Part shown: in pieces, positions 4,636 through 50,382 of the stretch | Layout of the letters: every line of letters starts with the position of its first letter | Numbering within the stretch: the stretch's first letter is position 1 | IMG/VR virus record: IMGVR_UViG_3300043172_001414 | Length of the DNA stretch: 64,000 nt | Reading direction: 5' to 3' (one strand) | Origin: a virus | Lineage: Duplodnaviria; Heunggongvirae; Uroviricota; Caudoviricetes | Translations under genes and position numbers: made by a program | The notes under the pieces: generated by a model | Seen by the model: the letters and a program-made list of their open reading frames with translations, nothing else | What the model was told of the DNA's origin: nothing | Databases searched by the model: none

Positions 4636-4640
4636 TAAAA

Positions 4641-4801
4641 TGGTGCAAACTTAATCTGACGTACAGTGAGTTCCTTTTGGGAAATGTGAGTTCGAATCTC
4701 AGCCACGGGCATTTAATACAACACTAGCCCGTGTGGTGCAATTGGCGACACCCACATATTGTACACTTAAATTTAGATTTAAATTTAAATTTTTGACACC
4801 A
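4641..4801 (+). ncRNA. Circularly permuted tRNA-like RNA A (YrlA-like topology)
   Basis: Terminal stem TGGTG/CACCA. Internal order: T arm (TGAG-TTCGAAT-CTCA), acceptor CACGGGC-loop-GCCCGTG, D arm TGGTGCAATTGGCGACAC. Confidence 0.75.
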
Positions 4802-4812
4802 CAGATTGATTT

Positions 4813-4977
4813 TGGTACGCATATTGATTGTGACTAGGCATTCTACACCCATGCGAGAGTTCGAATCTCTTCACCTTCACCAAGCACTTAATGAGTTCTT
4901 GGTGAAGGTGTAGCTCAGCGGAAGAGCAGGGTCTTTAAACTACGCCAACGGTCTACAAATATCAATAGTATATACCA
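4813..4977 (+). ncRNA. Circularly permuted tRNA-like RNA B (YrlA-like topology)
   Basis: Terminal stems TGGTA/TACCA and TATTGAT/ATCAATA; T arm GAGAG-TTCGAAT-CTCTT; 13-bp CACCTTCACCAAG/CTTGGTGAAGGTG; D arm TAGCTCAGCGGAAGAGC. Confidence 0.8.
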
Positions 4978-8255: not shown

Positions 8256-8753
8256 ATGAAAACTGATAGAGAAATTATTGAACAATATTCCGACTTCTTC
8301 CCAAACAGGGCAGACAAAACAAAATCTAATATGAAGTATGGATTTTGTTGTGATGTCGGGTGGTATCCACTTATAGTTACAGCCTTAGAACAATTAGATG
8401 AGATAGAGTATGCGGAATTTATCGAGATCGTGCAGATCAAAGAGAAATACGGTACTCTTCGCATCTACTTCGATATTAGTAAAGATTTCGAACTAAAGTT
8501 TAACGATAACATTTTTAAGAGACTGTATTACTGGGCTAAAGGTTTTAATGTAAAAACCGAGCGTAATACACTATGGAAAGTAGTTCACAAAATTACAGCT
8601 GAAGCATATAATAACTCAGTCACCACATGTGAAATTTGTGGGAAGGCTCCGGCACTAAAAGGTTATTCAGAATACTGGATTAAAACAGTATGTAAAAATT
8701 GTTCAGATGTATTTGAAAATTTCACATACGATAGTACAGACAAGAAATCATAA
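8256..8753 (+). CDS. Conserved phage hypothetical protein with C-terminal Zn ribbon
   Basis: GWYPLI, QIKEKYGTLRIY, TCEICGK...VCKNC. Confidence 0.65.
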   Translation: MKTDREIIEQYSDFFPNRADKTKSNMKYGFCCDVGWYPLIVTALEQLDEIEYAEFIEIVQIKEKYGTLRIYFDISKDFELKFNDNIFKRLYYWAKGFNVKTERNTLWKVVHKITAEAYNNSVTTCEICGKAPALKGYSEYWIKTVCKNCSDVFENFTYDSTDKKS

Positions 8754-9066
8754 CAATCAACAGGTTTACTTTAGTTGAACCGAACAACGAGGAAGGACGA
8801 ATGGAAGTAATAAACGGCTATATAATCATGGGACTTTTAACAGTATTGATAGGACTAATATTCGCATTACTAAAGGCTGTATCTGCAGTCATTGAAGAAC
8901 TAAAGTATTCAACAGTAGCTCTGCTAAATTCTAATAATGAACTTAAAGAAACCATGGAAACACAAAACAATCCATACAACAACGATTACGACGCATAAAA
9001 AATACACAATAAATACAACCGCTAATAGCAAAACGAGATATATGAAATAGTCTAAGGAAATAAATT

Positions 9067-13533: not shown

Positions 13534-13959
13534 ATGCACCACACTAAGACAAAAGGTGATATTGGAGTAGGATTCGTTGTCGCAGACCTGTTAGAAAACG
13601 GAATTGTACCAGCTCTTCCAATGTCAGAACACTTACCGTTTGACATAGTCGCTATTAGTGCATGTTCTCATATATCTAGGGTTTCTGTTAAGTATAGAGA
13701 AAAGAATAAATATGGTTGTGTAGTAGTACCACTATCTAGTGTTTGGGCCGATAAAAAAGGGAACCACGTTAAAAAAGCAGACAAGAGTTTATTTGACGTA
13801 ACAGCTATTTATTGTCCTGATACTAAGAAAGTTTATTACGTTAGAAATGACGAGACAAATGAAGCAATATCGTTACGAATAGACAAACCTAAAAACAATC
13901 AAATGATAAATATAACGTCCGCATCCGATTATGAAGGAGCAGAAAGATTATTTGGGTGA
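13534..13959 (+). CDS. PD-(D/E)XK endonuclease of the homing/intron-associated type, free-standing
   Basis: TKGDIGV...DL...G...PFDIV...RVSVKY...FDVTAIYCP; SD AGGAG before ATG 13534; stop codon lies inside tRNA-Arg. Confidence 0.75.
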   Translation: MHHTKTKGDIGVGFVVADLLENGIVPALPMSEHLPFDIVAISACSHISRVSVKYREKNKYGCVVVPLSSVWADKKGNHVKKADKSLFDVTAIYCPDTKKVYYVRNDETNEAISLRIDKPKNNQMINITSASDYEGAERLFG

Positions 13960-14027
13960 TTAGCTCAGTTGGATAGAGCATTGGATTTCTAATCCAAAGG
14001 CCAGGGGTTCGATTCCCTTATCACCTA
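13954..14027 (+). tRNA. tRNA-Arg(TCT)
   Basis: Anticodon arm TTGGA-TTTCTAA-TCCAA; canonical D and T arms. Confidence 0.93.
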
Positions 14028-14031
14028 CTAT

Positions 14032-14380
14032 GGGGATGCATTGGTATCGACATGGACACGGAAAATTAGATTGCATGTAGAGGATTTCGGTTGGCCTCTT
14101 AAAAAAGCCGGAAAAACAATAAATGCAAACAACACTTTTGCTGTAGCTGCTTAATCGCAACTAAACCACCTATTCTTGTCCTGGCTGGATAGACTGGTAT
14201 ATATCTCAGGATCGATTCTAAGCTATACTGAAGGGCTTTAGATTTAAACAACACTTCAGTTAAGCTTCAGCTGATCCGGCCTTTAGGGAGCCTCTGAAGA
14301 CGAAAAACAATACAAAGGAAAACATGTACCAATTTGATTGGAAATTTTTATGGACGAGAGTTCGAAACTCTCCATCTCCA
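14032..14380 (+). ncRNA. ssrA: tmRNA; tag (A)ANNTFAVAA
   Basis: 5' GGGGATG...TCGAC; 3' T arm GAGAG-TTCGAAA-CTCTC and CATCTCCA; tag frame 14125-14154 ending GCT GCT TAA. Confidence 0.92.
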
Positions 14381-14609
14381 CTAAGGAAAACAGTATGATT
14401 AACTATATTATAATCGGCATTACAGCAATCATGCTACTACCGATAATGAATAGAGAATCATTTGTTTACACAAAATTGCCGAAACATGTAGGAACCATGT
14501 ACGCAATGACAGTCGCCTCAATATTGGCGTATGCAACTTATAAGATAGGAAACTAAAGTATGGCTTATAACAAAGGAGTTCTCATGTAAATAATCACTAG
14601 GAGATTTAT

Positions 14610-16621: not shown

Positions 16622-16650
16622 TTGACTTTATATAAATATTATTCTATAAT
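16622..16650 (+). promoter_or_regulatory. Sigma70-type promoter for the Ro60 gene
   Basis: TTGACT-17-TATAAT. Confidence 0.8.
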
Positions 16651-16719
16651 TGTTTTTACAAAGATACATGAAAAAGTAAGTCTACTGTAGACTACTAAAT
16701 TGAACAAAGGAGCTGTGCA

Positions 16720-18423
16720 ATGGCAAAGTTTAATAACACTCCAAGCAAGAACCGAAAGATGACTACATCAGAAGATGGCGTTAAAGCTTTCCAAAAATCA
16801 ATGTACCAAGATCTGTGTGATCGGGTATTGACATGTTTTTACGGCCAAGATAAATTCTATTCAAGTGGATATAAGGCCAACAAAGATCTTAGCAATCTGA
16901 TTCAGAAGGTCGGTAAAGAAGATCCAATGTTCCTAGCTAAATTGGCGATTCTAAGTCGTGAGAAATTTAACCTGAGATCTGTATCTCATGTGTTAACTGC
17001 AGAGCTATCAAGAATAGTTTCTACACTAAACACAAAAGAAGACATAGATACTTCAGTTGTTAAAACTGTAGCTGAAAGAGTTGTTGTTCGTGTTGATGAT
17101 ATCACTGAAATCCTCTCTTACTTAATCTACAACTACAGTAAAGAGAAGCAGTCTCAGCATGGTACAAGACACATGGATAAGAAATTCTCCAAACAGCTGA
17201 GAAAAGGTCTTCAGAATGCAATAGCTAAGTTTGATGCGTACCAACTCGGTAAGTATAAAGCTGCGAAGAAAGAAGTTAAACTCCGTGATGTTTTCCGCAT
17301 ACTTCGTCCTAAACCAATTGACGAAGACCAGGCGAAACTATGGGGTCAATTAATGGACGGTACTCTTGAACAATCTAACACCTGGGAGAATAAAATCTCT
17401 AGTGCTGGTCAGATTGACAAGAAAGGTAAGACTGAATCAGAAATCAAGAAAGAAGTTGATGATGCCAAGTCTGAAAACTGGGAAAAATTACTAATTTCCA
17501 AGAAGTTACCTTACATGGCGCTGTTACGTAACCTTAGAAACATTGTAGAAGCTAACGTATCTAAAGAAGCGGTTGACGCAGCTGTATCGTTCTTAACTAA
17601 CGAAAAGGCAGTTTTAAATAGTAAGCAGTTTCCATTCAGATTCTTCAGTGCATACAAAGCACTTAATGGTCAGGTTGGCTACGATCCTTATAATCGCTTA
17701 AGAGCTAAACTCACTATGGAAGTCGATCCTTTTGCATCAAAGTATGGTAGCGCCACTTCGAAACCATCTGTTGCTAATACTAAGGAAAGATTCTTAGCTG
17801 CTCTTAATAAAGCCCTCTGGCACTCTGGTAAAAATGTTCCTAAACTTGAAGGAAACACTGTGATTGCAGTTGACCTATCAGGATCAATGGATTCTAGATT
17901 ATCAGATAAATCAGAGGTTACTTACATGGAAGTCGGTGCTGTAATGGGGTCATTGGCTCAACAGTACTGTAATCAGTCTATTGTTTATGGTTTCGGGGCA
18001 ACTCAGCAGATCATAAAAGTTGATGAGCGTGGCGAAAATCCATTGGATCGTGTTCAGGAAATAATGAACACTAGCGTTGGACACTCCACAAACCTTCATG
18101 CAGTTATTAACGACATGACCAAACGTGGTATGCACGTAGATCAAATGTTCGTATTTACCGATTGTCAACTTAACGGAAGCTACTGGGGTGGATCTTCTTC
18201 TTCTCTGATGGGCGATCTTAAGACATACCAAACTAAAGTAAACAAGGATATTAAGGTTTACGAGTTTAACTTAGCAGCATCTGATGCTTCTACACAGTTA
18301 GATCCAAAGAACCCTAATTACTTCCACCTTAGCGGATGGAGTGATGGTTTACTTAAGAGCGTAGTTGAAATGGAAACCATGAAACACGGTATTTTGGACA
18401 TGGTGAACGCTGTAGAACTTTAG
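16720..18423 (+). CDS. rsr: Ro60/TROVE domain RNA-binding protein with vWA domain
   Basis: DPMFLAKLAILSREKFNLRSV, KFDAYQLGKY, VKLRDVFR..RPKP, TWE..ISSAG, LPYMALLRNLRN, QFPFRFFSAY, MIDAS DLSGSM, FTD, GWSD. Confidence 0.93.
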   Translation: MAKFNNTPSKNRKMTTSEDGVKAFQKSMYQDLCDRVLTCFYGQDKFYSSGYKANKDLSNLIQKVGKEDPMFLAKLAILSREKFNLRSVSHVLTAELSRIVSTLNTKEDIDTSVVKTVAERVVVRVDDITEILSYLIYNYSKEKQSQHGTRHMDKKFSKQLRKGLQNAIAKFDAYQLGKYKAAKKEVKLRDVFRILRPKPIDEDQAKLWGQLMDGTLEQSNTWENKISSAGQIDKKGKTESEIKKEVDDAKSENWEKLLISKKLPYMALLRNLRNIVEANVSKEAVDAAVSFLTNEKAVLNSKQFPFRFFSAYKALNGQVGYDPYNRLRAKLTMEVDPFASKYGSATSKPSVANTKERFLAALNKALWHSGKNVPKLEGNTVIAVDLSGSMDSRLSDKSEVTYMEVGAVMGSLAQQYCNQSIVYGFGATQQIIKVDERGENPLDRVQEIMNTSVGHSTNLHAVINDMTKRGMHVDQMFVFTDCQLNGSYWGGSSSSLMGDLKTYQTKVNKDIKVYEFNLAASDASTQLDPKNPNYFHLSGWSDGLLKSVVEMETMKHGILDMVNAVEL

Positions 18424-18454
18424 TTAATAAAAGTCAACTATTTGCATAAAGTAG

Positions 18455-18483
18455 TTGACTAGTTAATGAAAAGTTGCTATAAT
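18455..18483 (+). promoter_or_regulatory. Sigma70-type promoter of the Y RNA array
   Basis: TTGACT-17-TATAAT; -35 overlaps a 9-bp inverted repeat AGTCAACTA/TAGTTGACT. Confidence 0.8.
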
Positions 18484-18505
18484 TAGAATATACAAAGGAA
18501 TTAAT

Positions 18506-18593
18506 AAAAAATAATTAGCGATGCAAGAAAGAGATACTTCGAAACTCTTAATTTCATCAAGCCCTCTTTCTGCTACTTTCCTAATTATTTTTT
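18506..18593 (+). ncRNA. Y RNA-like unit 1 (short, no tRNA module)
   Basis: Terminal stem AAAATAATTAG/CTAATTATTTT; GATGCAAG...TACTTCG; inner stem GAAAGAG/CTCTTTC. Confidence 0.7.
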
Positions 18594-18618
18594 ATACCTT
18601 TGTTTAATAAATGAGATT

Positions 18619-18770
18619 TTAATAAAAAAGATGTGTTGCAAGTTTAACTTACTTCGATTATTTATACATAATAGGTTGCTGGTTCGAGTCCAGTCGTGGG
18701 AGCAATCCCATGTAGCTCAATTGGTAGAGAAAAAATATGTTAGACTGTCCCTTTCCATCTTTTTTATTAA
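18619..18770 (+). ncRNA. YrlA-like Y RNA unit 2
   Basis: Stem AATAAAAAAGATG/CATCTTTTTTATT; GTTGCAAG...TACTTCG; T arm CTGG-TTCGAGT-CCAG, closed acceptor, D arm TAGCTCAATTGGTAGAG. Confidence 0.85.
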
Positions 18771-18784
18771 GATTTTAAAAAATT

Positions 18785-18940
18785 AAAAAAATAAGTAGTG
18801 ATGCAATTAATAGTTACTTCGCAATAGGTGCTTCGGGTCGGTGGTTCGAATCCTCCTCCCTCGATAACGACGAGGGGTAGCTCAGTTTGGTAGAGCAGAA
18901 GAAAGATTCACTATAAATGGTTCTTTCCTACTTATTTTTT
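18785..18940 (+). ncRNA. YrlA-like Y RNA unit 3
   Basis: Stem AAAAAATAAGTAG/CTACTTATTTTTT; GATGCAA...TACTTCG; GGTTCGAATCC; CCCTCG/CGAGGG; TAGCTCAGTTTGGTAGAGC. Confidence 0.85.
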
Positions 18941-18947
18941 ACACTTT

Positions 18948-19101
18948 AAAAAACTGTGGTGTTGCAAGTTAAAGTTACTTCGCTATTAACGACGTGGTCG
19001 GATGTTCGAATCATTCACTCCCTGTATAACTAACCAAAGGGAGTTAGCTCAGCTGGAAGAGCACGTAAATCTCTCTAACTGATTTTTACCCACAGTTTTT
19101 T
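18948..19101 (+). ncRNA. YrlA-like Y RNA unit 4
   Basis: Stem AAAAACTGTGG/CCACAGTTTTT; GTTGCAAG...TACTTCG; GTTCGAATC; ACTCCCT/AGGGAGT; TAGCTCAGCTGGAAGAGC. Confidence 0.85.
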
Positions 19102-19108
19102 TGTTCTT

Positions 19109-19251
19109 AAATATGGCGCTGCAGATAAGAGTTACTTCGCATGCCAAGCCGGAAATACGGGTTCGAATCCCGTGCGCTCCTAAATAGGGGGGTTCGTCTA
19201 ACTGGATAGGACTCCGTAATAGATACTCTTTTTGTTTCTTGCCCATATTTT
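19109..19251 (+). ncRNA. YrlA-like Y RNA unit 5
   Basis: Stem AAATATGG/CCATATTT; GCTGCAG...TACTTCG; T arm ACGGG-TTCGAAT-CCCGT; D arm GTCTAACTGGATAGGAC. Confidence 0.82.
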
Positions 19252-19260
19252 TTGATTGAA

Positions 19261-19318
19261 AATCCTGGCTTGCAGTGAAATCTTCTCTAGCCGTTAAGAC
19301 TAACTGCTCCCAGGTTTT
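19261..19318 (+). ncRNA. Minimal Y RNA-like unit 6
   Basis: CCTGG/CCAGG stem with TTGCAGT...ACTGC; lacks TACTTCG and the tRNA module. Confidence 0.5.
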
Positions 19319-19323
19319 GATAT

Positions 19324-19437
19324 TAATCAGCACTGCAGTACGCAAATACTTCGGATAATAATTCAGCAGCAAGCGGAATTTATTAGGTTCAAACCCTAAA
19401 TAAAAACAAATCTTTGCGTATGTCTCTCGTCTGATTA
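19324..19437 (+). ncRNA. Y RNA-like unit 7 (T-arm only)
   Basis: TAATCAG/CTGATTA; ACTGCAG, TACGCAAA/TTTGCGTA, TACTTCG; TAGG-TTCAAAC-CCTA. Confidence 0.65.
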
Positions 19438-19439
19438 TA

Positions 19440-19465
19440 GGCTCCCTAATGGGGAGCCATTTTTA
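19440..19465 (+). terminator. Terminator closing the Y RNA array
   Basis: GGCTCCC-TAATG-GGGAGCC then ATTTTT. Confidence 0.8.
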
Positions 19466-19597
19466 TTTCCCCATTTTATACATTTAAACTAAAGTAATAT
19501 AAATTGTTATATTATTTAAAAAAGTATTGACTGATATTATTTTAATACTTATTATGTATACATCAATCGGACAAAATAATAATTAACAGGAGTTACA

Positions 19598-20248
19598 ATG
19601 GCAGTTATCAATCTTACAAAAGGTCAAAAGATTAACCTATCTAAAGACCATGCATCACTTAAAAAACTTGAAGTCGGAATGGGCTGGCAGGAAAGTAAAG
19701 GTTCTTCAATAGACCTTGATACTTCAGTTATAATGTTTGCCGGAAACACCGTTAAAGAAGTAGTTTCTTTTAGTAACCTTAATAGTAGAGACGGGTCTAT
19801 ACATCACCATGGTGATGATCTGACAGGTGGTGGCAGTGCAAACAAACCTAATGAGATCATCGACGTTACACTAGCTAAAGTTTCTTCGGATATCGACAAA
19901 CTTGGTTTCATTTTAAACATCTACGGATGTGCAAGTAGCAAGCAGACTTTCGGCAATCTTAAAAACTCTTGGGTTGCATTATACGATGCAGACACTAAAG
20001 TAGAACTTGCTCGTTTCAAACTCGATACTGATGATCAGCTTTCTGACAAAACTGCAATGATCATTGGTGAAGTTTACCGCCATAACGGTGAGTGGAAATT
20101 TAACTCTCTCGGTCAGGCAACATATGACAAATCAATAGCTGATGTTAAAAACAACTGGGGATCTCCTGTTTCTGAAAGACCACGTACAGCACAATCTACT
20201 GGCGGTGGTACAGGATTCCTCGGTAGACTTCGTGGTCTCATAAGCTAA
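19598..20248 (+). CDS. TerD/TerZ-family stress protein with C-terminal extension
   Basis: INLTKGQKINL, GMGW, DLDTS, HHGDDLTGG, GEVYRHNGEWKF. Confidence 0.9.
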   Translation: MAVINLTKGQKINLSKDHASLKKLEVGMGWQESKGSSIDLDTSVIMFAGNTVKEVVSFSNLNSRDGSIHHHGDDLTGGGSANKPNEIIDVTLAKVSSDIDKLGFILNIYGCASSKQTFGNLKNSWVALYDADTKVELARFKLDTDDQLSDKTAMIIGEVYRHNGEWKFNSLGQATYDKSIADVKNNWGSPVSERPRTAQSTGGGTGFLGRLRGLIS

Positions 20249-21568: not shown

Positions 21569-22225
21569 ATGTCAGTACCTGTTACCAAAGAGAATGTTGA
21601 AAATGCTCGATACATAGCACGTCTTAAAAAATTAAATAATCACTGCGAAGAAAAAACAGTATGGGACTCTATAGACAGACCATTAAAGCCATTGATATAC
21701 GAACTACACAGATTAGGTCTTCAAACTAAGTTTTCATGTTGTGGATTTTCATACGAACCAAAAGAAGGTGAAGAACCTAAATCGCATTCGACTAAAAAAT
21801 GTTATGTCATGCTTCACACACCTAATAATCCAAGCACAATGCAATCCTTTATAAGGATAACTGCAATCGCCAAGCAACTAGGTTGGCGAGTACACATGGC
21901 ATTCCCAAACGTTTGGGAAATTTATATTAATAACAGCATGTTAGGATTTTATGAAGAGTGTGATCATTTAGAAGAAAGTATTCATGACTATGAAACATAT
22001 GCAATATGTATTTTTGAATTAGTAAAACAACTACATGCATTAGACACAGTATCTAAAGACGTAGTTATACAAGATGGTAATAGAACATACGGACTCGTTG
22101 ACGAATGGCAAATCAAACCTAAATTATCATGCAAAATAGAGTTTGACAGTACAACAGATGAATACACAATTACCTCATTATCAACTCAACAACTAAAAGA
22201 TTTTTACAATAAGGAAAACGATTAA
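21569..22225 (+). CDS. Hypothetical protein
   Basis: IDRPLKPLI..L...GLQTKFSCCG pattern; SD present. Confidence 0.6.
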   Translation: MSVPVTKENVENARYIARLKKLNNHCEEKTVWDSIDRPLKPLIYELHRLGLQTKFSCCGFSYEPKEGEEPKSHSTKKCYVMLHTPNNPSTMQSFIRITAIAKQLGWRVHMAFPNVWEIYINNSMLGFYEECDHLEESIHDYETYAICIFELVKQLHALDTVSKDVVIQDGNRTYGLVDEWQIKPKLSCKIEFDSTTDEYTITSLSTQQLKDFYNKEND

Positions 22226-23280
22226 TGATATTTTTATGGTTAAGTTTAGTAGTAGTCGGATGTATCTGGATAATGAAGTCATGCGACCCATTTGAAGAGG
22301 CTTCAAGCTATCTTGGAAGAAACCTCGGCCCAGGTATTAAAGGGGCATCAATCAACGCTATAGGCAGCTCTATGCCTGAATTATGGACTGCATGTCTATT
22401 CTTATTCTATTTTACAACTACTGATGGTAGTAGTGAATTTTCAGCAGGTATTGCAACAACTGCAGGTTCAGCAGTGTTTAATGCATTTATTATCCCTGGT
22501 CTAGTTATTATTACAGCATTAAAAATGCTACCTACCCTCAAAGGTATATCAATTAGTAAAACCGTTATAATAAGAGATGGATTCTTTTTCTTACTCGCAG
22601 AACTAGCCCTTATTCTTCTCCTTAAAGACGGTGAACTAAAGTGGTGGATGGGAGCAATACTAATCGGTATATACTTCATGTACGCAATAACATTGTTTGT
22701 CCATAATAAAATATCTAAAACTGAAGTAGATGATGAAGATGAAGAAGATTTTGATGGCATGACTACAAGTAAAGCATGGCTAACCCTTTGCTTATCTACA
22801 GTATTAATAGGTATTGGATGTTTTATTATGTCATACTCGGTAGTCGAAATAGCTAAAATTTGGGAGATCTCTACGTTCTTTATAGCCGTTATAATTGCTG
22901 CAGCTGCAACAAGTGTACCTGACACTATAATCAGCATGAAGGATGCTAAGAAAGGAAATTATGATGATGCTGTAAGTAATGCTGTTGGATCAAATATCTT
23001 TGACATATGTATATGTCTTGGAGTACCATTGTTAGTGTATACTTTAGTTTACGAGCCAGTTATTAAAATTGATGTAGGTGTCACAGAGTTACGCATACTT
23101 TTACTAGGTATGACTGCAGTTTTATTATTCATATTTCTTTCGTTAAAAAAGTTAGGTTATAAAACTGCAGTTGTCCTTCTTTCACTCTATGCACTTTATG
23201 CATTCTACACGTTATCTCGTGGCAAAGGTGTTGCATGGGCAAATGAAGTAGGAACAGTTATCCTGGGCATACTTAACTAG
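22225..23280 (+). CDS. Ca2+/Na+ (CaCA, YrbG-like) exchanger
   Basis: Alpha repeats AIGSSMPE...GSAVFN and AAATSVPD...GSNIFDI; about 10 TM segments; acidic central loop. Confidence 0.9.
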   Translation: MIFLWLSLVVVGCIWIMKSCDPFEEASSYLGRNLGPGIKGASINAIGSSMPELWTACLFLFYFTTTDGSSEFSAGIATTAGSAVFNAFIIPGLVIITALKMLPTLKGISISKTVIIRDGFFFLLAELALILLLKDGELKWWMGAILIGIYFMYAITLFVHNKISKTEVDDEDEEDFDGMTTSKAWLTLCLSTVLIGIGCFIMSYSVVEIAKIWEISTFFIAVIIAAAATSVPDTIISMKDAKKGNYDDAVSNAVGSNIFDICICLGVPLLVYTLVYEPVIKIDVGVTELRILLLGMTAVLLFIFLSLKKLGYKTAVVLLSLYALYAFYTLSRGKGVAWANEVGTVILGILN

Positions 23281-26121: not shown

Positions 26122-26427
26122 ATGAAGATTGAAAAGACCCCCAACGGATTAGCAGTTATACCATTTAGAGATCAAAACTTTGTCGCATGCACTCTGCAAG
26201 AATCACATTCGAGTGGAAGATCTATAACTTTCGGGGCCGAGAGTATAGGTCTTAAAAAATTTGCACCAGGAGAAGGATGGAAAGATGTTAACCTTGACGT
26301 GTCAGCATCTGATCATTATGATGCAAATACAAAAATGCACTTAACACGAGAGCAAGTAAAATCTTTATTACCACACTTAGAACAGTTCGTACGAACAGGG
26401 GAGTTAGCCTTAAATGGATCTGATTGA
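26122..26427 (+). CDS. Hypothetical phage protein
   Basis: ORF; ends in MHLTREQVKSLLPHLEQF. Confidence 0.55.
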   Translation: MKIEKTPNGLAVIPFRDQNFVACTLQESHSSGRSITFGAESIGLKKFAPGEGWKDVNLDVSASDHYDANTKMHLTREQVKSLLPHLEQFVRTGELALNGSD

Positions 26428-27352
26428 AACAACTTATGAAAAAGAAAAACTGATTGCTAAAGAGCATTGTATCTTTAGAACCCTTACAGGTTCACGACTG
26501 TATGGAACGTTCATGGAAGACTCAGACTATGACTATAAAGGCGTAGCAATTCCACCTAAAGAATATTTCTTCGGTCTGCGTAAGTTCGAGCAGTTCGAAG
26601 ATAGAGAAACCGATAACGTAATTTATAACATTAAAAAAGCTGTCGGGCTTATGGTAAACAATAACCCCAATATGATGGACATGTTGTTTGCACCTAAAGA
26701 TTTCTGGGATATAAGTGATCCTATCTGGAACAACATTTATGATGTCAGATATATGTTCTTATCCAATCAAGTTAAGAGAACCTTTACAAGCTATGCAGCA
26801 CAACAGCTAAAGCGCATGGAGTCACACAAGTCCTGGCTTACAAAGAAACCTGCTAAACCTGAGAAACCTGAGAGTACTGACAATACTAAACAGTTCAGCA
26901 AAGCAATTCTCTCGATACCGGAAAAGTTTCTCACCACTGGTCTGCACGAACAAGTCAAGGCAGAGAAAACTTATCAGAAAGAATTAGCTGATTACAAAGC
27001 TTACAATGATCACATGGAGAAACGTAATCCCGAACGTCTTAAAACTGAAATGATTGTAGGGTACGATACTAAACACGCAATGCATATCATTAGATTGTTA
27101 AAGCAATCTAAAGAAATCTTTGAGACTGGTGAAGTTATAGTAAATCGAACTGGTATTGATGCTGACGAACTTCTTGAAATACGTCAGGGCAAATGGAAGT
27201 ATGAAACCATCATAGAACTTGCTCGTGACCTGCAGAGTGATATCGACACCCTCTATTTAACATCTCAATTTCCTGAGACCCCAGATAGACATAAAGTAGA
27301 GAAACTACTTGTAGGTGTTATGGAAGAATATTTTTATAGGGAAAAATCATAA
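26414..27352 (+). CDS. Pol-beta superfamily nucleotidyltransferase (YcgL/RlaP-like)
   Basis: GSRLYGT...SDYDYKG, NNPN..D.LF, GYDTKHAMHIIRLL. Confidence 0.88.
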   Translation: MDLIETTYEKEKLIAKEHCIFRTLTGSRLYGTFMEDSDYDYKGVAIPPKEYFFGLRKFEQFEDRETDNVIYNIKKAVGLMVNNNPNMMDMLFAPKDFWDISDPIWNNIYDVRYMFLSNQVKRTFTSYAAQQLKRMESHKSWLTKKPAKPEKPESTDNTKQFSKAILSIPEKFLTTGLHEQVKAEKTYQKELADYKAYNDHMEKRNPERLKTEMIVGYDTKHAMHIIRLLKQSKEIFETGEVIVNRTGIDADELLEIRQGKWKYETIIELARDLQSDIDTLYLTSQFPETPDRHKVEKLLVGVMEEYFYREKS

Positions 27353-32881: not shown

Positions 32882-35700
<2,819 letters not shown>

Positions 35701-36394: not shown

Positions 36395-37182
36395 TTCCTT
36401 TTTAACTTAAGTATACTAGTATAAGGAGTAACTATTCCAGCTGCTTTATCTGGATACTCCTCTATAAGCTTATCAATCTGTCTCTCGTAACGATTTCTCA
36501 TAGTCCTGGTTAAGTAAGAACTCGATAATATAAACCTGCAGAGCTTGTCGTTAGCCATTATATAGGCATCAACTGAAGTCTCATACACTTGGTCTAGTGC
36601 TACTAATGAACCAGTCAAAATCTGATCATTCCTATCAGCCTTGGATAGAGATGCCTCAATTTTTCTCTTTTTATCGACAACTACTACATAAGCCTCATGC
36701 ATAGCAAGCAATCGATCTACCACTTCTTTCTCTATTATACTTAGTTCTGCTAATAACATTGGTGGATTACCTATGATAGGCTCCTTCCTGAATAGAGCTA
36801 ACATAGCAAAAATAGCACACAACGTCATAACTGATCCGAGTATTATTAACAGGATCACTCCCAGATTAAAACCATCGGACTCTGCATTATGCTGTTTTTG
36901 CATATTACTATCTAAAGACACTATCTTATCTACAATATATGCTGCAGTCTTAGTTTGTGTCATATCCATAACGGCTAATGCAACTTTAACTTCATGGATC
37001 TCTGATTGTACAGGCTTTAAATCTACAGTAGTTACTTTAGTTTGACCCTGAGGATCTGGACATGGTTTGTTTTCATTGCAAGAACAAAACGCAACCATTA
37101 ACACTATAGCTCCGACTATTACTGCAACAACCGCACACCCAACACAAGCCTCAATACTCCATATGTTATTTTTATTACTCAT
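36379..37182 (-). CDS. Membrane protein
   Basis: Two TM segments. Confidence 0.55.
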   Translation of the reverse strand: MSNKNNIWSIEACVGCAVVAVIVGAIVLMVAFCSCNENKPCPDPQGQTKVTTVDLKPVQSEIHEVKVALAVMDMTQTKTAAYIVDKIVSLDSNMQKQHNAESDGFNLGVILLIILGSVMTLCAIFAMLALFRKEPIIGNPPMLLAELSIIEKEVVDRLLAMHEAYVVVVDKKRKIEASLSKADRNDQILTGSLVALDQVYETSVDAYIMANDKLCRFILSSSYLTRTMRNRYERQIDKLIEEYPDKAAGIVTPYTSILKLKRNWRGF

Positions 37183-40276: not shown

Positions 40277-41380
40277 ATGAAAGTTAAACCACATAAAATA
40301 TACGCTGAATCATTAGATCCTAAAACTCTAAGTCAGTTCTACGATGCAATGAAATGTGATTTCGTTGTTAAAGGTGCATTGATGCCTGATGCACACCTGG
40401 GGTATTCTATCCCTATAGGAGCTGTTGTAGCTACCAAAGGAATGATTGTTCCAGCATGGGTAGGCTACGACATTGGTTGCGGCATGGTAGCACTTAAGAC
40501 CACGTTTAAGATCGATGACATTAGAGAACACTCACAAGAAATATTCGATGGTATCTATAGAAGAATACCTGTCGGGGCCAATCACAATGACCGATTCACC
40601 AACTGGAAAGAAGCCGAAACACTACCATCAACTAAAGTACTTAAGGATCTGTATGATAAGAACGGTGGGAAGCAGATAGGTTCTCTTGGAGGTGGTAATC
40701 ACTTCGTTGAAATTGGTCATGATGAAAATGATGATATTTGGATTATTATTCATTCAGGTTCTAGAAACCTGGGACATAGAATAGCAACGCACTACATGAA
40801 ACTTGCTTCTGAATCTGATAAAGCAAAAGAAGGGAACTATCCTTTAGATGTTACTTCAGTTGAAGGTGAAAACTATATCATGGATCTTAACTTCTGTTTA
40901 GAGTTTGCACTGCAGAATAGAAAGATCATGATTGAAAGAGTTATTCGAGTGATCAAAGAAACCTGTGAGGGTGATGGCAACATGAGAAACATCATTAACC
41001 GTAACCATAACCATGCCACTGAAAAAGATGGATTGTGGATACACCGTAAGGGCGCTACACATGCTGAAGCAGGAATGGAAGGCGTTATACCAGGCAACAT
41101 GAGAGATGGTTCTTTTATTGTAGAAGGTAAAGGAAATCCAGAGTCTCTTTACTCATCTTCACATGGAGCTGGACGAGTTCTTAGCAGAAGACAAGCTAAA
41201 GAGACAATTGATCTTAAAGATTTTGAAGAAACAATGGGCGACATTACAGCTAAAGTAGGTCAATCAACTATTGATGAATCTCCTTTTGCTTACAAAGACA
41301 TATTCCAAGTTATGAAAGAACAAGAAGACCTGGTTCATGTTAAACATCGAGTCAAACCCTTAATTAACATAAAGGCATAA
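40277..41380 (+). CDS. rtcB: RtcB RNA ligase
   Basis: MPDAHLGY, GYDIGCG, GSLGGGNHFVE, HSGSR, HNH, HRKGAT, PGNM, SHGAGR, DESPFAYK. Confidence 0.96.
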   Translation: MKVKPHKIYAESLDPKTLSQFYDAMKCDFVVKGALMPDAHLGYSIPIGAVVATKGMIVPAWVGYDIGCGMVALKTTFKIDDIREHSQEIFDGIYRRIPVGANHNDRFTNWKEAETLPSTKVLKDLYDKNGGKQIGSLGGGNHFVEIGHDENDDIWIIIHSGSRNLGHRIATHYMKLASESDKAKEGNYPLDVTSVEGENYIMDLNFCLEFALQNRKIMIERVIRVIKETCEGDGNMRNIINRNHNHATEKDGLWIHRKGATHAEAGMEGVIPGNMRDGSFIVEGKGNPESLYSSSHGAGRVLSRRQAKETIDLKDFEETMGDITAKVGQSTIDESPFAYKDIFQVMKEQEDLVHVKHRVKPLINIKA

Positions 41381-50264: not shown

Positions 50265-50382
50265 TGAGCCTGGTAGGAGTCGAACCTACATTGGTTGCCA
50301 TTATTTTCAACCTATCGGCCTACTTGCGGACTCGAACCGCCAATCGGATATCTCCGTGCGTCTACCATTGCGCCACAGACTC
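50265..50382 (-). ncRNA. tRNA-shaped RNA E2 with two T-arm-like hairpins
   Basis: Acceptor GAGTCTG/CAGGCTC; D loop AATGGTA; mini stem CGGA-GATA-TCCG; GCGG-TTCGAGT-CCGC and GTAGG-TTCGACT-CCTAC. Confidence 0.65.

What the first reader, a model, noticed from the sequence alone, without database searches (positions are those of the whole stretch)
16622..19465. Phage Ro60 gene followed by an independently transcribed array of seven divergent Y-RNA-like units
Seen in sequence: after the TROVE gene there is a TTGACT-17-TATAAT promoter (18455), seven back-to-back units each closed by its own terminal stem and mostly a U-tract, and a terminator (19440). Units share nTGCA(A/G), and six share TACTTCG. 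Units 2-5 carry a permuted tRNA module (T arm, closed acceptor, D arm). Unit 7 has only a T arm; units 1 and 6 have none. Established: bacterial Ro60 (Rsr) binds YrlA-class Y RNAs with this permuted tRNA-like domain, and in some bacteria is co-encoded with RtcB. Inference: a seven-member, structurally graded cassette on a phage suggests modular RNA adaptors that redirect one Ro60 ring to different partners, or elbow-mimic decoys against tRNA-targeting defences.
Basis: partly seen in the sequence, partly recalled or inferred. Interest (0 to 1): 0.88.

Follow-up and report, generated by a model that had tools for sequence, protein, structure and literature searches.

The report
Phage Ro60 with six-unit Y-RNA cassette
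A large phage carries the ring-shaped RNA-binding protein Ro60 followed by its own small operon of six partner-type RNAs that share one conserved 'handle' but have different, mostly tRNA-like, heads; this layout is common next to Ro60 genes in phages and bacteria, yet databases do not annotate it and I found no paper describing it.

Summary
Window 16720-18423 encodes a true Ro60 (TROVE plus Ro60-type vWA). A TTGACT-17-TATAAT site (18455) and a terminator (19440) bracket seven back-to-back folded units.

- **Six units (u1-u5, u7) share a 'handle'.** It consists of a terminal stem, a 1-nt bulge plus 2 bp, an internal loop UGCA / GNYYYUU, an 8-bp helix, then invariant UACUUCG.
- **Heads differ.** u2-u5 carry a permuted tRNA top half (T arm, closed 7-bp acceptor, D arm; sub-threshold Rfam YrlA). 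u7 keeps only a T arm. u1 has no head.
- **u6 is not a Y-like unit.** It is a plain conserved hairpin.
- **The stems covary strongly.** 92% of cells are paired against 61% in shuffles.
- **The family is widespread.** My covariance model finds 2-7-unit arrays beside Ro60 in many phage contigs, in named phages such as CcrColossus, and in 77 of 80 bacterial Ro60 loci.

So this is one good phage example of a widespread Ro60-linked Y-RNA variant. It lacks the canonical GNCGAA motif, and Rfam's YrlA model reached its threshold in none of the loci I scanned. The bacterial arrays weaken the phage-specific decoy idea. This scan has reported the same kind of handle-RNA arrays before on other DNA.

The parts
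16622..16650 (+). Promoter-like site TTGACT-17-TATAAT upstream of the Ro60 gene
   Evidence: Consensus scan, 11 of 12 matches. A prediction only.
16720..18423 (+). Ro60 (Rsr-like) protein, 567 aa: TROVE ring domain plus Ro60-type vWA domain with a DxSxS motif (VDLSGSM)
   Evidence: ORF. Pfam TROVE 1.8e-25 and vWA_Ro60 3.7e-9. PHROG 850 RNA-binding protein 2.9e-52. Closest solved chain is Thermus phage phiLo Ro60, 9KOP/9L5Y, E 2.4e-15.
18432..18460 (+). 9-bp hairpin or palindrome AGTCAACTA...TAGTTGACT between the Ro60 stop codon and the array; its 3' arm holds the -35 hexamer
   Evidence: Read from the sequence. The 73%-identical relative L012 has the same hairpin with changed, still complementary arms (AGTCAGCCATT / AATGGTTGACT).
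18455..18483 (+). Promoter-like site TTGACT-17-TATAAT with TG before the -10, in front of the array
   Evidence: Consensus scan, 11 of 12 matches. The -35 is conserved in L012; the -10 there is weaker.
18511..18588 (+). Unit 1: handle RNA with no tRNA head. The handle closes a 22-nt loop. The stem extends to about 18505-18594 through A6/U6.
   Evidence: Family model R1, 53.6 bits, E 4.9e-14, full length. Fold z = -5.8. Handle parts listed.
18626..18763 (+). Unit 2: handle plus permuted tRNA head (T arm, 7-bp acceptor closed by GCAA, D arm)
   Evidence: R1 104.1 bits. Rfam YrlA core 29.3 bits. Acceptor 7/7 pairs.
18791..18935 (+). Unit 3: handle plus permuted tRNA head
   Evidence: R1 120.9 bits. 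Rfam YrlA core 35.8 bits, E 7.5e-6. Acceptor 7/7 pairs.
18952..19097 (+). Unit 4: handle plus permuted tRNA head with a 14-nt acceptor loop
   Evidence: R1 115.9 bits. Rfam YrlA core 28.3 bits. Acceptor 7/7 pairs.
19109..19250 (+). Unit 5: handle plus permuted tRNA head whose halves resemble tRNA-Glu
   Evidence: R1 105.5 bits. Rfam YrlA core 16.2 bits. Six of the ten best-matching tRNAs, out of 349 phage and bacterial tRNAs, are tRNA-Glu.
19259..19318 (+). Unit 6: plain hairpin (AAAAUCCUGG...CCAGGUUUU) with no handle. Possibly a processing site or weak terminator.
   Evidence: Not hit by R1. Fold -16.5 kcal/mol, z = -2.5. The L012 ortholog (8707-8772, 70% identical) keeps the basal stem and has compensatory changes in the distal stem.
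19323..19438 (+). Unit 7: handle plus degenerate head that keeps only a T arm (UUAGGUUCAAACCCUAA)
   Evidence: R1 46.5 bits, E 7.6e-12. Its L012 ortholog H (8772-8912) still carries D arm, CAU anticodon arm, long variable arm and T arm in normal order (Rfam tRNA 39 bits, model 7-64).
19440..19466 (+). Intrinsic-terminator-like hairpin GGCUCCCUAAUGGGGAGCC followed by a U run, closing the cassette
   Evidence: Terminator scan: 8 pairs, 6 of them GC. Fold -15.5 kcal/mol.

Best explanation
The locus is a phage-borne copy of a widespread Ro60 plus multi-Y-RNA cassette.

**Transcription and processing (inferred).** Directly after the Ro60 gene, one promoter-to-terminator unit is transcribed. Read-through from Ro60 is also possible. 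The transcript is cut into six small RNAs.

**The handle (shown).** In each RNA the 5' and 3' ends pair into the same rod-shaped handle:
- a terminal stem;
- a 1-nt bulge plus 2 bp;
- an asymmetric internal loop, 5'-UGCA against 3'-G-N-Y-Y-Y-U-U;
- an 8-bp helix;
- the invariant single-stranded UACUUCG.

This has the same topology as the Ro60-binding stem of canonical YrlA (stem, 5/8-nt loop containing UGC, stem, loop, head).

**Binding (inferred).** The handle most likely docks on the outer face of the Ro60 ring.

**The heads (shown).** The distal heads differ. Four are permuted tRNA top halves, one of them tRNA-Glu-like. One is a decayed cloverleaf. One unit has no head.

**Function (inferred).**
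- The heads give one Ro60 ring several alternative RNA adaptors or tethers, for host exoribonucleases such as PNPase or for tRNA-handling enzymes.
- The 7-bp acceptor stems make u2-u5 likely RNase P substrates, as shown for M. smegmatis YrlA.
- The particle would act in RNA quality control or repair during infection, alongside the phage's RtcB ligase, RlaP-type nucleotidyltransferase, tmRNA and tRNAs.

In short: sequence, structure, covariation and gene linkage are shown. Transcription, processing, Ro60 binding and function are inferred.
For: - **Ro60 identity.**
- **Motif count.** Six exact TGCAR-N8-TACTTCG matches, confined to the array, against 0.5 expected by chance.
- **tRNA-like cores.** Rfam YrlA core matches in u2-u5.
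- **Covariation.** In an alignment of 22 units from 11 contigs, RNAalifold recovers both handle helices and the T, acceptor and D stems; 28 of 29 pairs show compensatory changes. 92.3% of cells are paired against 60.6% in shuffles (0 of 500 reach it) and at most 52% when partners are slid.
- **Handle conservation.** Over 64 units, U, C, U and C of UUACUUCG are invariant in 64/64, and G13 and A16 of the 5' loop are nearly invariant.
- **Linkage to Ro60 in whole records.** In the complete 213-kb phage G003 all five full-length hits lie directly upstream of Ro60. In CcrColossus (280 kb) all full-length hits lie at 108500-109462, next to TROVE gp139.
- **Linkage in bacteria.** The strict handle signature occurs 292 times on the Ro60 strand and 9 times on the other strand in 80 bacterial Ro60 loci. 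It is present in 77 of 80, with a median of 4 per locus.
- **Ortholog comparison.** A 73%-identical Ro60 (L012) has the same cassette with eight units, again between Ro60 and TerD.
- **RNA-repair genes in the window.** RtcB at 40277-41380 and RlaP at 26414-27352; tmRNA and tRNAs.
[quoted passage not shown] Phage phiLo Ro60 binds two adjacent Yrls and host PNPase (PMC12135203).
Against: - There is no experimental or read evidence for transcripts, ends or Ro60 binding in this phage.
- The canonical Rsr-recognition motif GNCGAAN0-1G is absent from all units.
- No unit reaches the Rfam YrlA gathering score; the best is 35.8 against 69.
- Promoter-like sites are no more frequent here than in shuffles.
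- Units for the first alignment were picked partly by their ability to pair, which inflates the figures for the two handle helices. The 2-bp element and the T, acceptor and D stems were not used for picking and still covary.
- Gene linkage does not prove physical binding. In Vibrio phage Va1 the units lie about 20 kb from Ro60.
Confidence: 0.75

Rival explanations
1. The handle RNAs are real structured RNAs but their direct partner is not Ro60. They would be substrates, guides or regulators for another factor of the RNA-repair toolkit (RtcB, the RlaP nucleotidyltransferase, RNase P, the CCA-adding enzyme). They would lie beside Ro60 only because the genes work in one pathway or operon.
For: The canonical Ro60-binding motif is missing. 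The window encodes RtcB and RlaP. In Vibrio phage Va1 and in the L012 phage some units lie 20-27 kb from Ro60, in tRNA regions. Heads with 7-bp acceptor stems look like RNase P substrates.
Against: Adjacency to Ro60 on the same strand holds across very different genomes, including bacterial loci. I did not check those loci for RtcB or RlaP. The topology equals the Ro60-binding stem of YrlA. Every tested Ro60 binds adjacent Y RNAs (PMC4201824, PMC12135203).
Confidence: 0.12
2. The cassette is chiefly a phage counter-defence. The tRNA-like heads act as decoys or sponges for host toxins and nucleases that recognise the tRNA elbow or acceptor, with Ro60 stabilising them.
For: There are four different tRNA top-half mimics, one of them tRNA-Glu-like. 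The phage invests in tRNAs, tmRNA and RtcB, which fits a conflict over tRNA. Head content differs between related phages: u5 has no ortholog in L012, and L012 unit B has none here.
Against: The same arrays sit beside chromosomal Ro60 genes in 77 of 80 bacterial loci, so the layout did not arise as a phage weapon. The heads lack anticodon loops, the target of most known tRNA nucleases. Units without a head (u1) keep the handle.
Confidence: 0.1
3. The units are circularly permuted or decaying tRNA genes of a phage tRNA cluster. They would be matured into working tRNAs by cutting and RtcB ligation, or be non-functional remnants, and the 'handle' would be only a processing signal.
For: Ro60 genes often lie in or beside tRNA arrays (L013 and L008). 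L012 unit B is called tRNA-Ser(GCU) by ARAGORN, and unit H keeps a CAU anticodon arm. RtcB is present.
Against: ARAGORN finds no tRNA in the window's array. The heads have no anticodon arm and no encoded CCA. The headless u1 and many headless relatives keep a perfectly conserved handle. The invariant UACUUCG and loop bases across 64 units point to a bound partner, not a disposable leader. Remnants would not show 92% pairing with compensatory changes.
Confidence: 0.03

Closest known systems
Bacterial and phage YrlA/YrlB Y RNAs bound by Rsr (Chen et al. 2014, PMC4201824; Rfam RF02553)
   Same: They are encoded next to Ro60 on the same strand. There are several RNAs per locus, processed from one precursor. 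One class has a permuted tRNA-like domain (T arm, closed acceptor, D arm) on a long stem with an internal loop; another class is a headless hairpin (YrlB-like, as u1). The topology stem / 5-8-nt loop with UGC / stem / loop / head matches the Rfam consensus.
   Different: There is no GNCGAAN0-1G motif. Instead the units have an invariant UACUUCG and a UGCA / GNYYYUU loop. All units score below the Rfam gathering score. There are six units here and up to seven or eight elsewhere, against two in the characterised bacteria (M. smegmatis, S. Typhimurium, D. radiodurans). All four heads have 7-bp acceptors; among the three studied species only M. smegmatis YrlA does.
Thermus phage phiLo Ro60 with Yrl1/Yrl2 (PMC12135203; PDB 9KOP, 9L5Y)
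   Same: It is a phage-encoded Ro60 with adjacent Y-like RNAs, and it is the closest solved protein by sequence. It binds its RNAs and host PNPase in vitro, a likely working model.
   Different: phiLo has two RNAs upstream, identified by the CGAA motif. Here there are six downstream, with a different handle motif and tRNA-like heads. Protein similarity is weak: E 2.4e-15, and the best-scoring stretch covers only residues 15-314.
Deinococcus radiodurans Yrn1/Yrn2 and the Ro60-Y RNA-PNPase (RYPER) machine (Chen et al. 2013, as cited in PMC4201824)
   Same: The RNA is modular: one end binds Ro60, and the other (with a T-arm-like element) tethers an effector. Several small RNAs are encoded beside rsr.
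   Different: The Yrn1 Ro-binding helix resembles the metazoan GGUCCGA type. The order of its tRNA-like arms differs. No PNPase link was tested here.
Metazoan Y RNAs
   Same: The 5' and 3' ends pair into a stem with a conserved asymmetric loop or bulge bound by Ro60. There is a large variable loop or head, a 3' U run, and 2-4 paralogs per genome.
   Different: There is no sequence similarity in the binding helix. Metazoan Y RNAs have no tRNA-like domain and are Pol III genes, not a polycistronic cassette.
Dictyostelium Class I RNAs (PMC7919456), a lead from earlier notes of this scan
   Same: A short terminal stem is followed on the 5' side by a conserved single-stranded motif, and the rest is variable. 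In the motif as I recall it from memory (CCUUACAGCAA; the paper's text gave only the conserved letters T3, C6, C9, A10, A11), ours matches at UUAC and the following C.
   Different: Only about five positions agree. The two most conserved terminal A's of the Class I motif are not matched. No Ro60 link is known there. This could well be chance.

Membership tests
Ro60 / Rsr (TROVE) protein | TROVE (HEAT-repeat ring) domain | tested here: met
   Pfam PF05731, E 1.8e-25, above the curated cut-off. PHROG 850, E 2.9e-52. Thousands of TROVE homologs.
Ro60 / Rsr (TROVE) protein | C-terminal Ro60-type vWA domain with a MIDAS DxSxS motif | tested here: met
   Pfam PF25045 vWA_Ro60, E 3.7e-9, residues 380-544. 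VDLSGSM is invariant in alignment A5 (D385, S387, S389).
Ro60 / Rsr (TROVE) protein | Closed ring fold that binds Y RNA on its outer face | not tested
   No structure was predicted. There is only sequence similarity to phiLo Ro60, 9KOP.
YrlA (Rfam RF02553) | Encoded within about 4 kb of Ro60 on the same strand | tested here: met
   The array starts 88 nt after the Ro60 stop codon, on the + strand.
YrlA (Rfam RF02553) | Permuted tRNA-like domain: T arm, closed acceptor-like stem, D arm | tested here: met
   u2-u5 match model positions 23-87 (25-83 for u2) at 16-36 bits. Acceptors have 6-7 of 7 pairs. u1, u6 and u7 do not have it.
YrlA (Rfam RF02553) | Score at or above the family gathering threshold (69 bits) | tested here: not met
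   The best score is 35.8 bits. No YrlA hit at gathering in the window, in 12 related phage loci or in 15 bacterial loci.
YrlA (Rfam RF02553) | GNCGAAN0-1G motif near the 5' end (proposed Rsr contact) | tested here: not met
   The regex finds none in 18490-19470. At the equivalent place the units have (G)NYGNUGCA; only UGC is shared with the Rfam consensus ..GGCGAAUGC...
YrlA (Rfam RF02553) | Physical binding to Rsr/Ro60 | not testable with these tools
   This needs RIP, CLIP or gel-shift assays.
Handle-RNA family defined here (model R1) | Terminal stem, bulge plus 2 bp, UG(C/U)A / GNYUNUU loop, 8-bp helix, UUACUUC(G) | tested here: met
   u1-u5 and u7 give full-length R1 hits of 46-121 bits. 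Parts are listed. u6 is not a member.
tRNA genes | Complete cloverleaf with anticodon arm, found by ARAGORN or Rfam tRNA at gathering | tested here: not met
   No tRNA is called in 18430-19480. The best Rfam tRNA score there is 16.7 bits.
Intrinsic terminator (end of cassette) | GC-rich hairpin followed by a U run | tested here: met
   19440-19458, 8 pairs with 6 GC, then ATTTTTATTT.

The most novel reading that the evidence does not exclude
The handle marks a general, interchangeable adaptor system. One Ro60 ring is loaded in turn with RNAs whose heads (different tRNA top halves, cloverleaves, hairpins) each recruit a different tRNA-binding enzyme, nuclease or ribosomal site. Heads with 7-bp acceptors would be cut by RNase P and given CCA, producing split, possibly chargeable, tRNA-like particles. 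Phages would swap heads to reprogramme host RNA decay and repair. A still bolder version holds that the stem plus UUAC..C signature is homologous to the orphan Class I RNAs of dictyostelids.
Probability: 0.15. Interest if true: 0.8.

Novelty: new variant of a known kind. Interest (0 to 1): 0.55.

Why it matters
What the variable end of a Y RNA does has been an open question since the tRNA-like domain was found in 2014. This locus, and the family it belongs to, offers natural sets of four to eight RNAs with one constant handle and different heads, placed next to a single Ro60 gene. That is close to a ready-made experiment:
- pull down Ro60 and ask whether every handle RNA comes with it;
- then ask what each head brings along.

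The family also occurs in culturable systems: Caulobacter phage CcrColossus, Xanthomonas, Rhizobium and Brevundimonas phages, and Flavobacterium, Chryseobacterium and Hymenobacter strains. Rfam's YrlA model reached its threshold in none of the phage and bacterial loci I scanned. In CcrColossus, part of one unit is annotated as a tRNA gene. A proper covariance model would therefore correct annotations and show how common multi-Y-RNA cassettes are.

For phage biology, it adds Ro60 particles with several RNAs to the RNA-repair kit of large phages (RtcB, nucleotidyltransferase, tmRNA, tRNAs).

Tried and rejected
**Searches that found nothing**
- Megablast of the locus against GenBank phages gave no match. 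Distant blastn gave only short T-arm/D-arm hits.
- No whole genome is held for the window.
- The metagenome-contig scan with the Ro60 alignment found nothing.
- DNA for the Logan copy of the closest relative was unavailable. It was recovered from IMG/VR instead.
- Listeria phage P100 was tried in order to link the highly expressed ncRNAs near an Rsr-like gene in the related phage CKA15 (PMC12282133). It has no full-length R1 hit, so that expression evidence cannot be transferred.

**Tools and papers not available**
- Two reviews (PMC10870794, PMC6047535) and the supplement tables of Chen et al. 2014 are not held. I could not see how many YrlA copies per phage were already listed there.

**My own errors**
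- My first unit-finding regex had the wrong spacing and returned only noise. It was corrected.

**Ideas tested and dropped**
- Ro60 clades do not split by handle type. R1 units also lie beside TROVE genes only 24-27% identical to this one.
- Not every head mimics an identifiable tRNA species. Only u5 shows a clear tRNA-Glu likeness; u2-u4 are generic.
- The region is not protein-coding. The open stretches in the array (92 and 137 codons) are not conserved in L012.
- The units are not tandem tRNA dimers mis-scored as YrlA. The acceptor strands pair within a unit across a 4-14-nt loop, and the unit ends pair with each other.

Full report
**1. What is in the sequence**

The ORF at 16720-18423 (+) encodes a 567-aa protein.
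- It matches Pfam TROVE (E 1.8e-25) and the Ro60-type vWA domain (E 3.7e-9).
- It matches PHROG 850, 'RNA-binding protein'.
- Its closest solved relative by sequence is the Ro60 of Thermus phage phiLo (9KOP/9L5Y, E 2.4e-15).
- The MIDAS-type VDLSGSM is invariant among homologs.

The gene is followed by 1.17 kb with no conserved ORF, up to a TerD gene at 19598. The consensus scan places TTGACT-17-TATAAT (11/12, with TG) at 18455-18483 and a strong terminator at 19440-19458. The count of promoter-like sites is no higher than in shuffles, so the promoter is a prediction only.

**2. The units**

Seven folded elements lie back to back. The pattern TGCAR-N8-TACTTCG occurs exactly six times in the 64-kb window, all inside the array. 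Shuffles give 0.51. These six units (u1-u5, u7) have the same layout to the base:
- an 8-bp or longer terminal stem, extended by A6/U6 in u1-u4;
- one bulged base;
- 2 bp;
- a loop with UGCA on the 5' side and seven bases G-N-Y-Y-Y-U-U on the 3' side;
- an 8-bp helix;
- then (A/U)UACUUCG.

The heads are as follows.
- **u2-u5** carry a T arm, immediately followed by a closed 7-bp acceptor hairpin (7, 7, 7 and 6 of 7 pairs) and a canonical D arm. Rfam's YrlA model matches exactly this core (positions 23-87; 25-83 for u2) at 29.3, 35.8, 28.3 and 16.2 bits, below the gathering score of 69.
- **u5** resembles tRNA-Glu in both halves; the other three are generic.
- **u7** keeps only a T arm.
- **u1** has no head.
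- **u6** (19259-19318) has TGCAG but no UACUUCG and is a plain hairpin.

ARAGORN calls no tRNA in the array.

**3. Relatives and covariation**

- A near-identical 6.3-kb metagenome contig (L009) has the same array with two substitutions.
- A phage contig whose Ro60 is 73-74% identical (L012, IMG/VR, 104 kb, CheckV 42% complete, so probably a genome of about 250 kb) has the same cassette between Ro60 and TerD, with eight elements.
- Orthologs are recognisable: u1~A, u2~C, u3~D, u4~D/E, u6~G, u7~H, at 64-77% identity. u5 has no ortholog in L012, and L012 unit B has none here.
- L012 units B and H carry tRNA-like cloverleaves in normal order inside the same handle. This shows that heads are exchangeable.

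I aligned 22 permuted-tRNA-type units from 11 contigs (A3).
- RNAalifold recovered the terminal stem, the 2-bp element, helix 2 and the T, acceptor and D stems. 28 of 29 pairs showed double changes.
- Counted against controls, 92.3% of cells pair, against 60.6% in shuffles (0 of 500 reach it) and at most 52% with slid partners.

One caveat applies. I chose units partly by their pairing in the two handle helices, which favours those two helices. The 2-bp element and the three head stems were not used for choosing, and they covary too. In the window the six units were defined by sequence motif alone.

**4. The family is very widespread**

A covariance model built from A3 (R1) hits u1-u5 and u7 full length at 46-121 bits and does not hit u6.

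It finds arrays next to Ro60 in many IMG/VR contigs:

| Locus | Units |
|---|---|
| L012 | 7 |
| L007 | 5 |
| L013 | 5 |
| L056 | 4+1 |
| L057 | 4+1 |
| L010 | 3+1 |
| L068 | 4 |
| L005 | 3 |
| L003 | 2 |
| L006 | 2 |

It also finds them in named phages:
- CcrColossus: six units upstream of TROVE gp139, one overlapping an annotated 'tRNA-Gln';
- Rhizobium RHph_Y65: five to six units;
- Brevundimonas Papperlapapp: three units;
- Xanthomonas MET23-P3: three units.

Whole-record searches show that the full-length hits cluster at Ro60 and are not scattered. Vibrio phage Va1 is an exception, with units about 20 kb away.

A scan of one genome per species with a Ro60 alignment gave 80 bacterial loci, mostly Bacteroidota with some Clostridia MAGs.
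- R1 gives 361 hits there.
- A strict handle regex gives 292 hits on the Ro60 strand against 9 on the other strand. It is present in 77 of 80 loci, with a median of 4 and a maximum of 7 per locus, mostly downstream of the gene.
- Units also lie beside TROVE genes only 24-27% identical to this one.
- At gathering thresholds, Rfam 15 reports no YrlA in any of these phage or bacterial loci.

Over 64 units, U, C, U and C of UUACUUCG are invariant, and G and A of the 5' loop and G, U and U of the 3' loop are nearly so.

**5. Relation to what is known**

Chen et al. 2014 (PMC4201824) described the following:
- YrlA RNAs with a permuted tRNA-like domain next to Ro60 in 254 bacteria and 22 phages;
- two or more Y RNAs per characterised species, processed from one precursor;
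- a second, headless hairpin class (YrlB, Yrn2);
- the idea that further Y RNAs let Ro60 form particles with more partners.

The phiLo study showed a phage Ro60 binding two adjacent Yrls and host PNPase (PMC12135203). Iyer et al. list TROVE proteins among the RNA-repair genes of jumbo phages (PMC7824862).

The present RNAs share the gene context, the modular plan and the overall topology with canonical YrlA. The Rfam consensus is stem, AUGCU / 8-nt loop, stem, loop, 4-bp stem, head. They differ in three respects:
- they lack the GNCGAAN0-1G motif and have their own invariant UACUUCG;
- they fall below the family threshold;
- they come in larger arrays with exchangeable heads.

I found no paper describing this handle or these arrays. 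However, the supplement tables of Chen et al. are not held and may already list several YrlA-like hits for phages such as CcrColossus. I therefore class this as a new variant of a known kind, not a new kind.

**6. Mechanism**

- **Most likely (about 0.75):** these are Ro60 partner RNAs. The handle is the Ro60-docking module, and the heads are alternative adaptors or tethers, or protective caps.
- Units with 7-bp acceptors are probably cut by RNase P.
- The particle would serve RNA quality control, decay or repair during infection. The same window encodes RtcB (40277-41380), an RlaP-type nucleotidyltransferase (26414-27352), tmRNA and seven tRNAs.
- Binding, processing and function are inferred, not shown.
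- The phage-specific decoy reading is weakened by the bacterial arrays and by the absence of anticodon loops.
- A partner other than Ro60 cannot be excluded.

**7. Earlier notes of this scan**

Searching the scan's own notes showed that the same kind of handle-RNA arrays beside Ro60-like genes has been reported repeatedly on other DNA. I took two leads from them.
- That bacteria carry such arrays too. I tested and confirmed this for this handle.
- A likeness to Dictyostelium Class I RNAs. On checking the paper, the match is limited to UUAC and one C.

**8. Verdict**

The locus is a clear, well-preserved phage example of a widespread, unannotated Ro60-linked Y-RNA variant. Its value lies in the family more than in this copy.

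Noticed in passing
window 4636-4775 and 4822-4968 (+): Two more permuted tRNA-like elements lie in the gap between a DUF7873 gene and a metallophosphoesterase gene. The second has a T arm, a 13-bp closed acceptor hairpin, a D arm and a long terminal stem. It folds at -50.6 kcal/mol (z = -5.3) and gives a weak full-length Rfam YrlA hit (23.4 bits). Neither element has the UGCA/UACUUCG handle.
   Followed up: partly
window 18432-18460 (+): A 9-bp palindrome or hairpin lies between the Ro60 stop codon and the array, and its 3' arm is the -35 hexamer of the array promoter. L012 keeps it with compensatory changes. It could be an operator, a Ro60 mRNA 3' structure or a processing site.
   Followed up: partly
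window 13954-14383 (+): A phage-encoded tmRNA (159.7 bits, tag ANNTFAVAA) lies directly after tRNA-Arg(TCT). The L012 phage has the same pair in the same relative place.
   Followed up: no
window 26414-27352 and 40277-41380 (+): An RlaP-type 'RNA repair pathway' nucleotidyltransferase and an RtcB RNA ligase are encoded in the same window. With Ro60 they form an RNA-repair toolkit. Also present are NAMPT (436-1845), an NAD-dependent DNA ligase (32882-34867, minus strand), a second TerD-family gene in the equivalent place downstream of Ro60 in the L012 relative, and a Na/Ca exchanger (22225-23280).
   Followed up: partly
window 50265-50382 (-): A full-length Rfam tRNA hit (34.4 bits) spans 118 nt and is not called by ARAGORN. 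It may be a tRNA with a roughly 45-nt insertion or another hybrid tRNA-like element.
   Followed up: no
L135 3158-3326 (CcrColossus JX100810 about 109122-109290): The annotated 'tRNA-Gln' of CcrColossus (109217-109284) lies inside a full-length handle unit (R1 87.3 bits). It is probably a mis-annotated Y-like RNA. In L012, unit B is likewise called tRNA-Ser(GCU) by ARAGORN although it sits inside a handle.
   Followed up: partly
L093 1-147 (G001 contig 36642-36794): The L012 phage has a solitary handle unit (R1 64.5 bits in the 5'-cut locus L093, 81 bits for the whole unit in the contig search) about 27 kb from Ro60, immediately before a tRNA cluster. Units are therefore not always in the Ro60 cassette.
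   Followed up: partly
window 18814-18822 and equivalents: The invariant loop motif ACUUCG(C) is the exact reverse complement of the canonical YrlA motif G(N)CGAAG(U). The strand assignment is secure from the D arms and U runs, so this is probably coincidence. Pairing between the two Y RNA classes was not examined.
   Followed up: no
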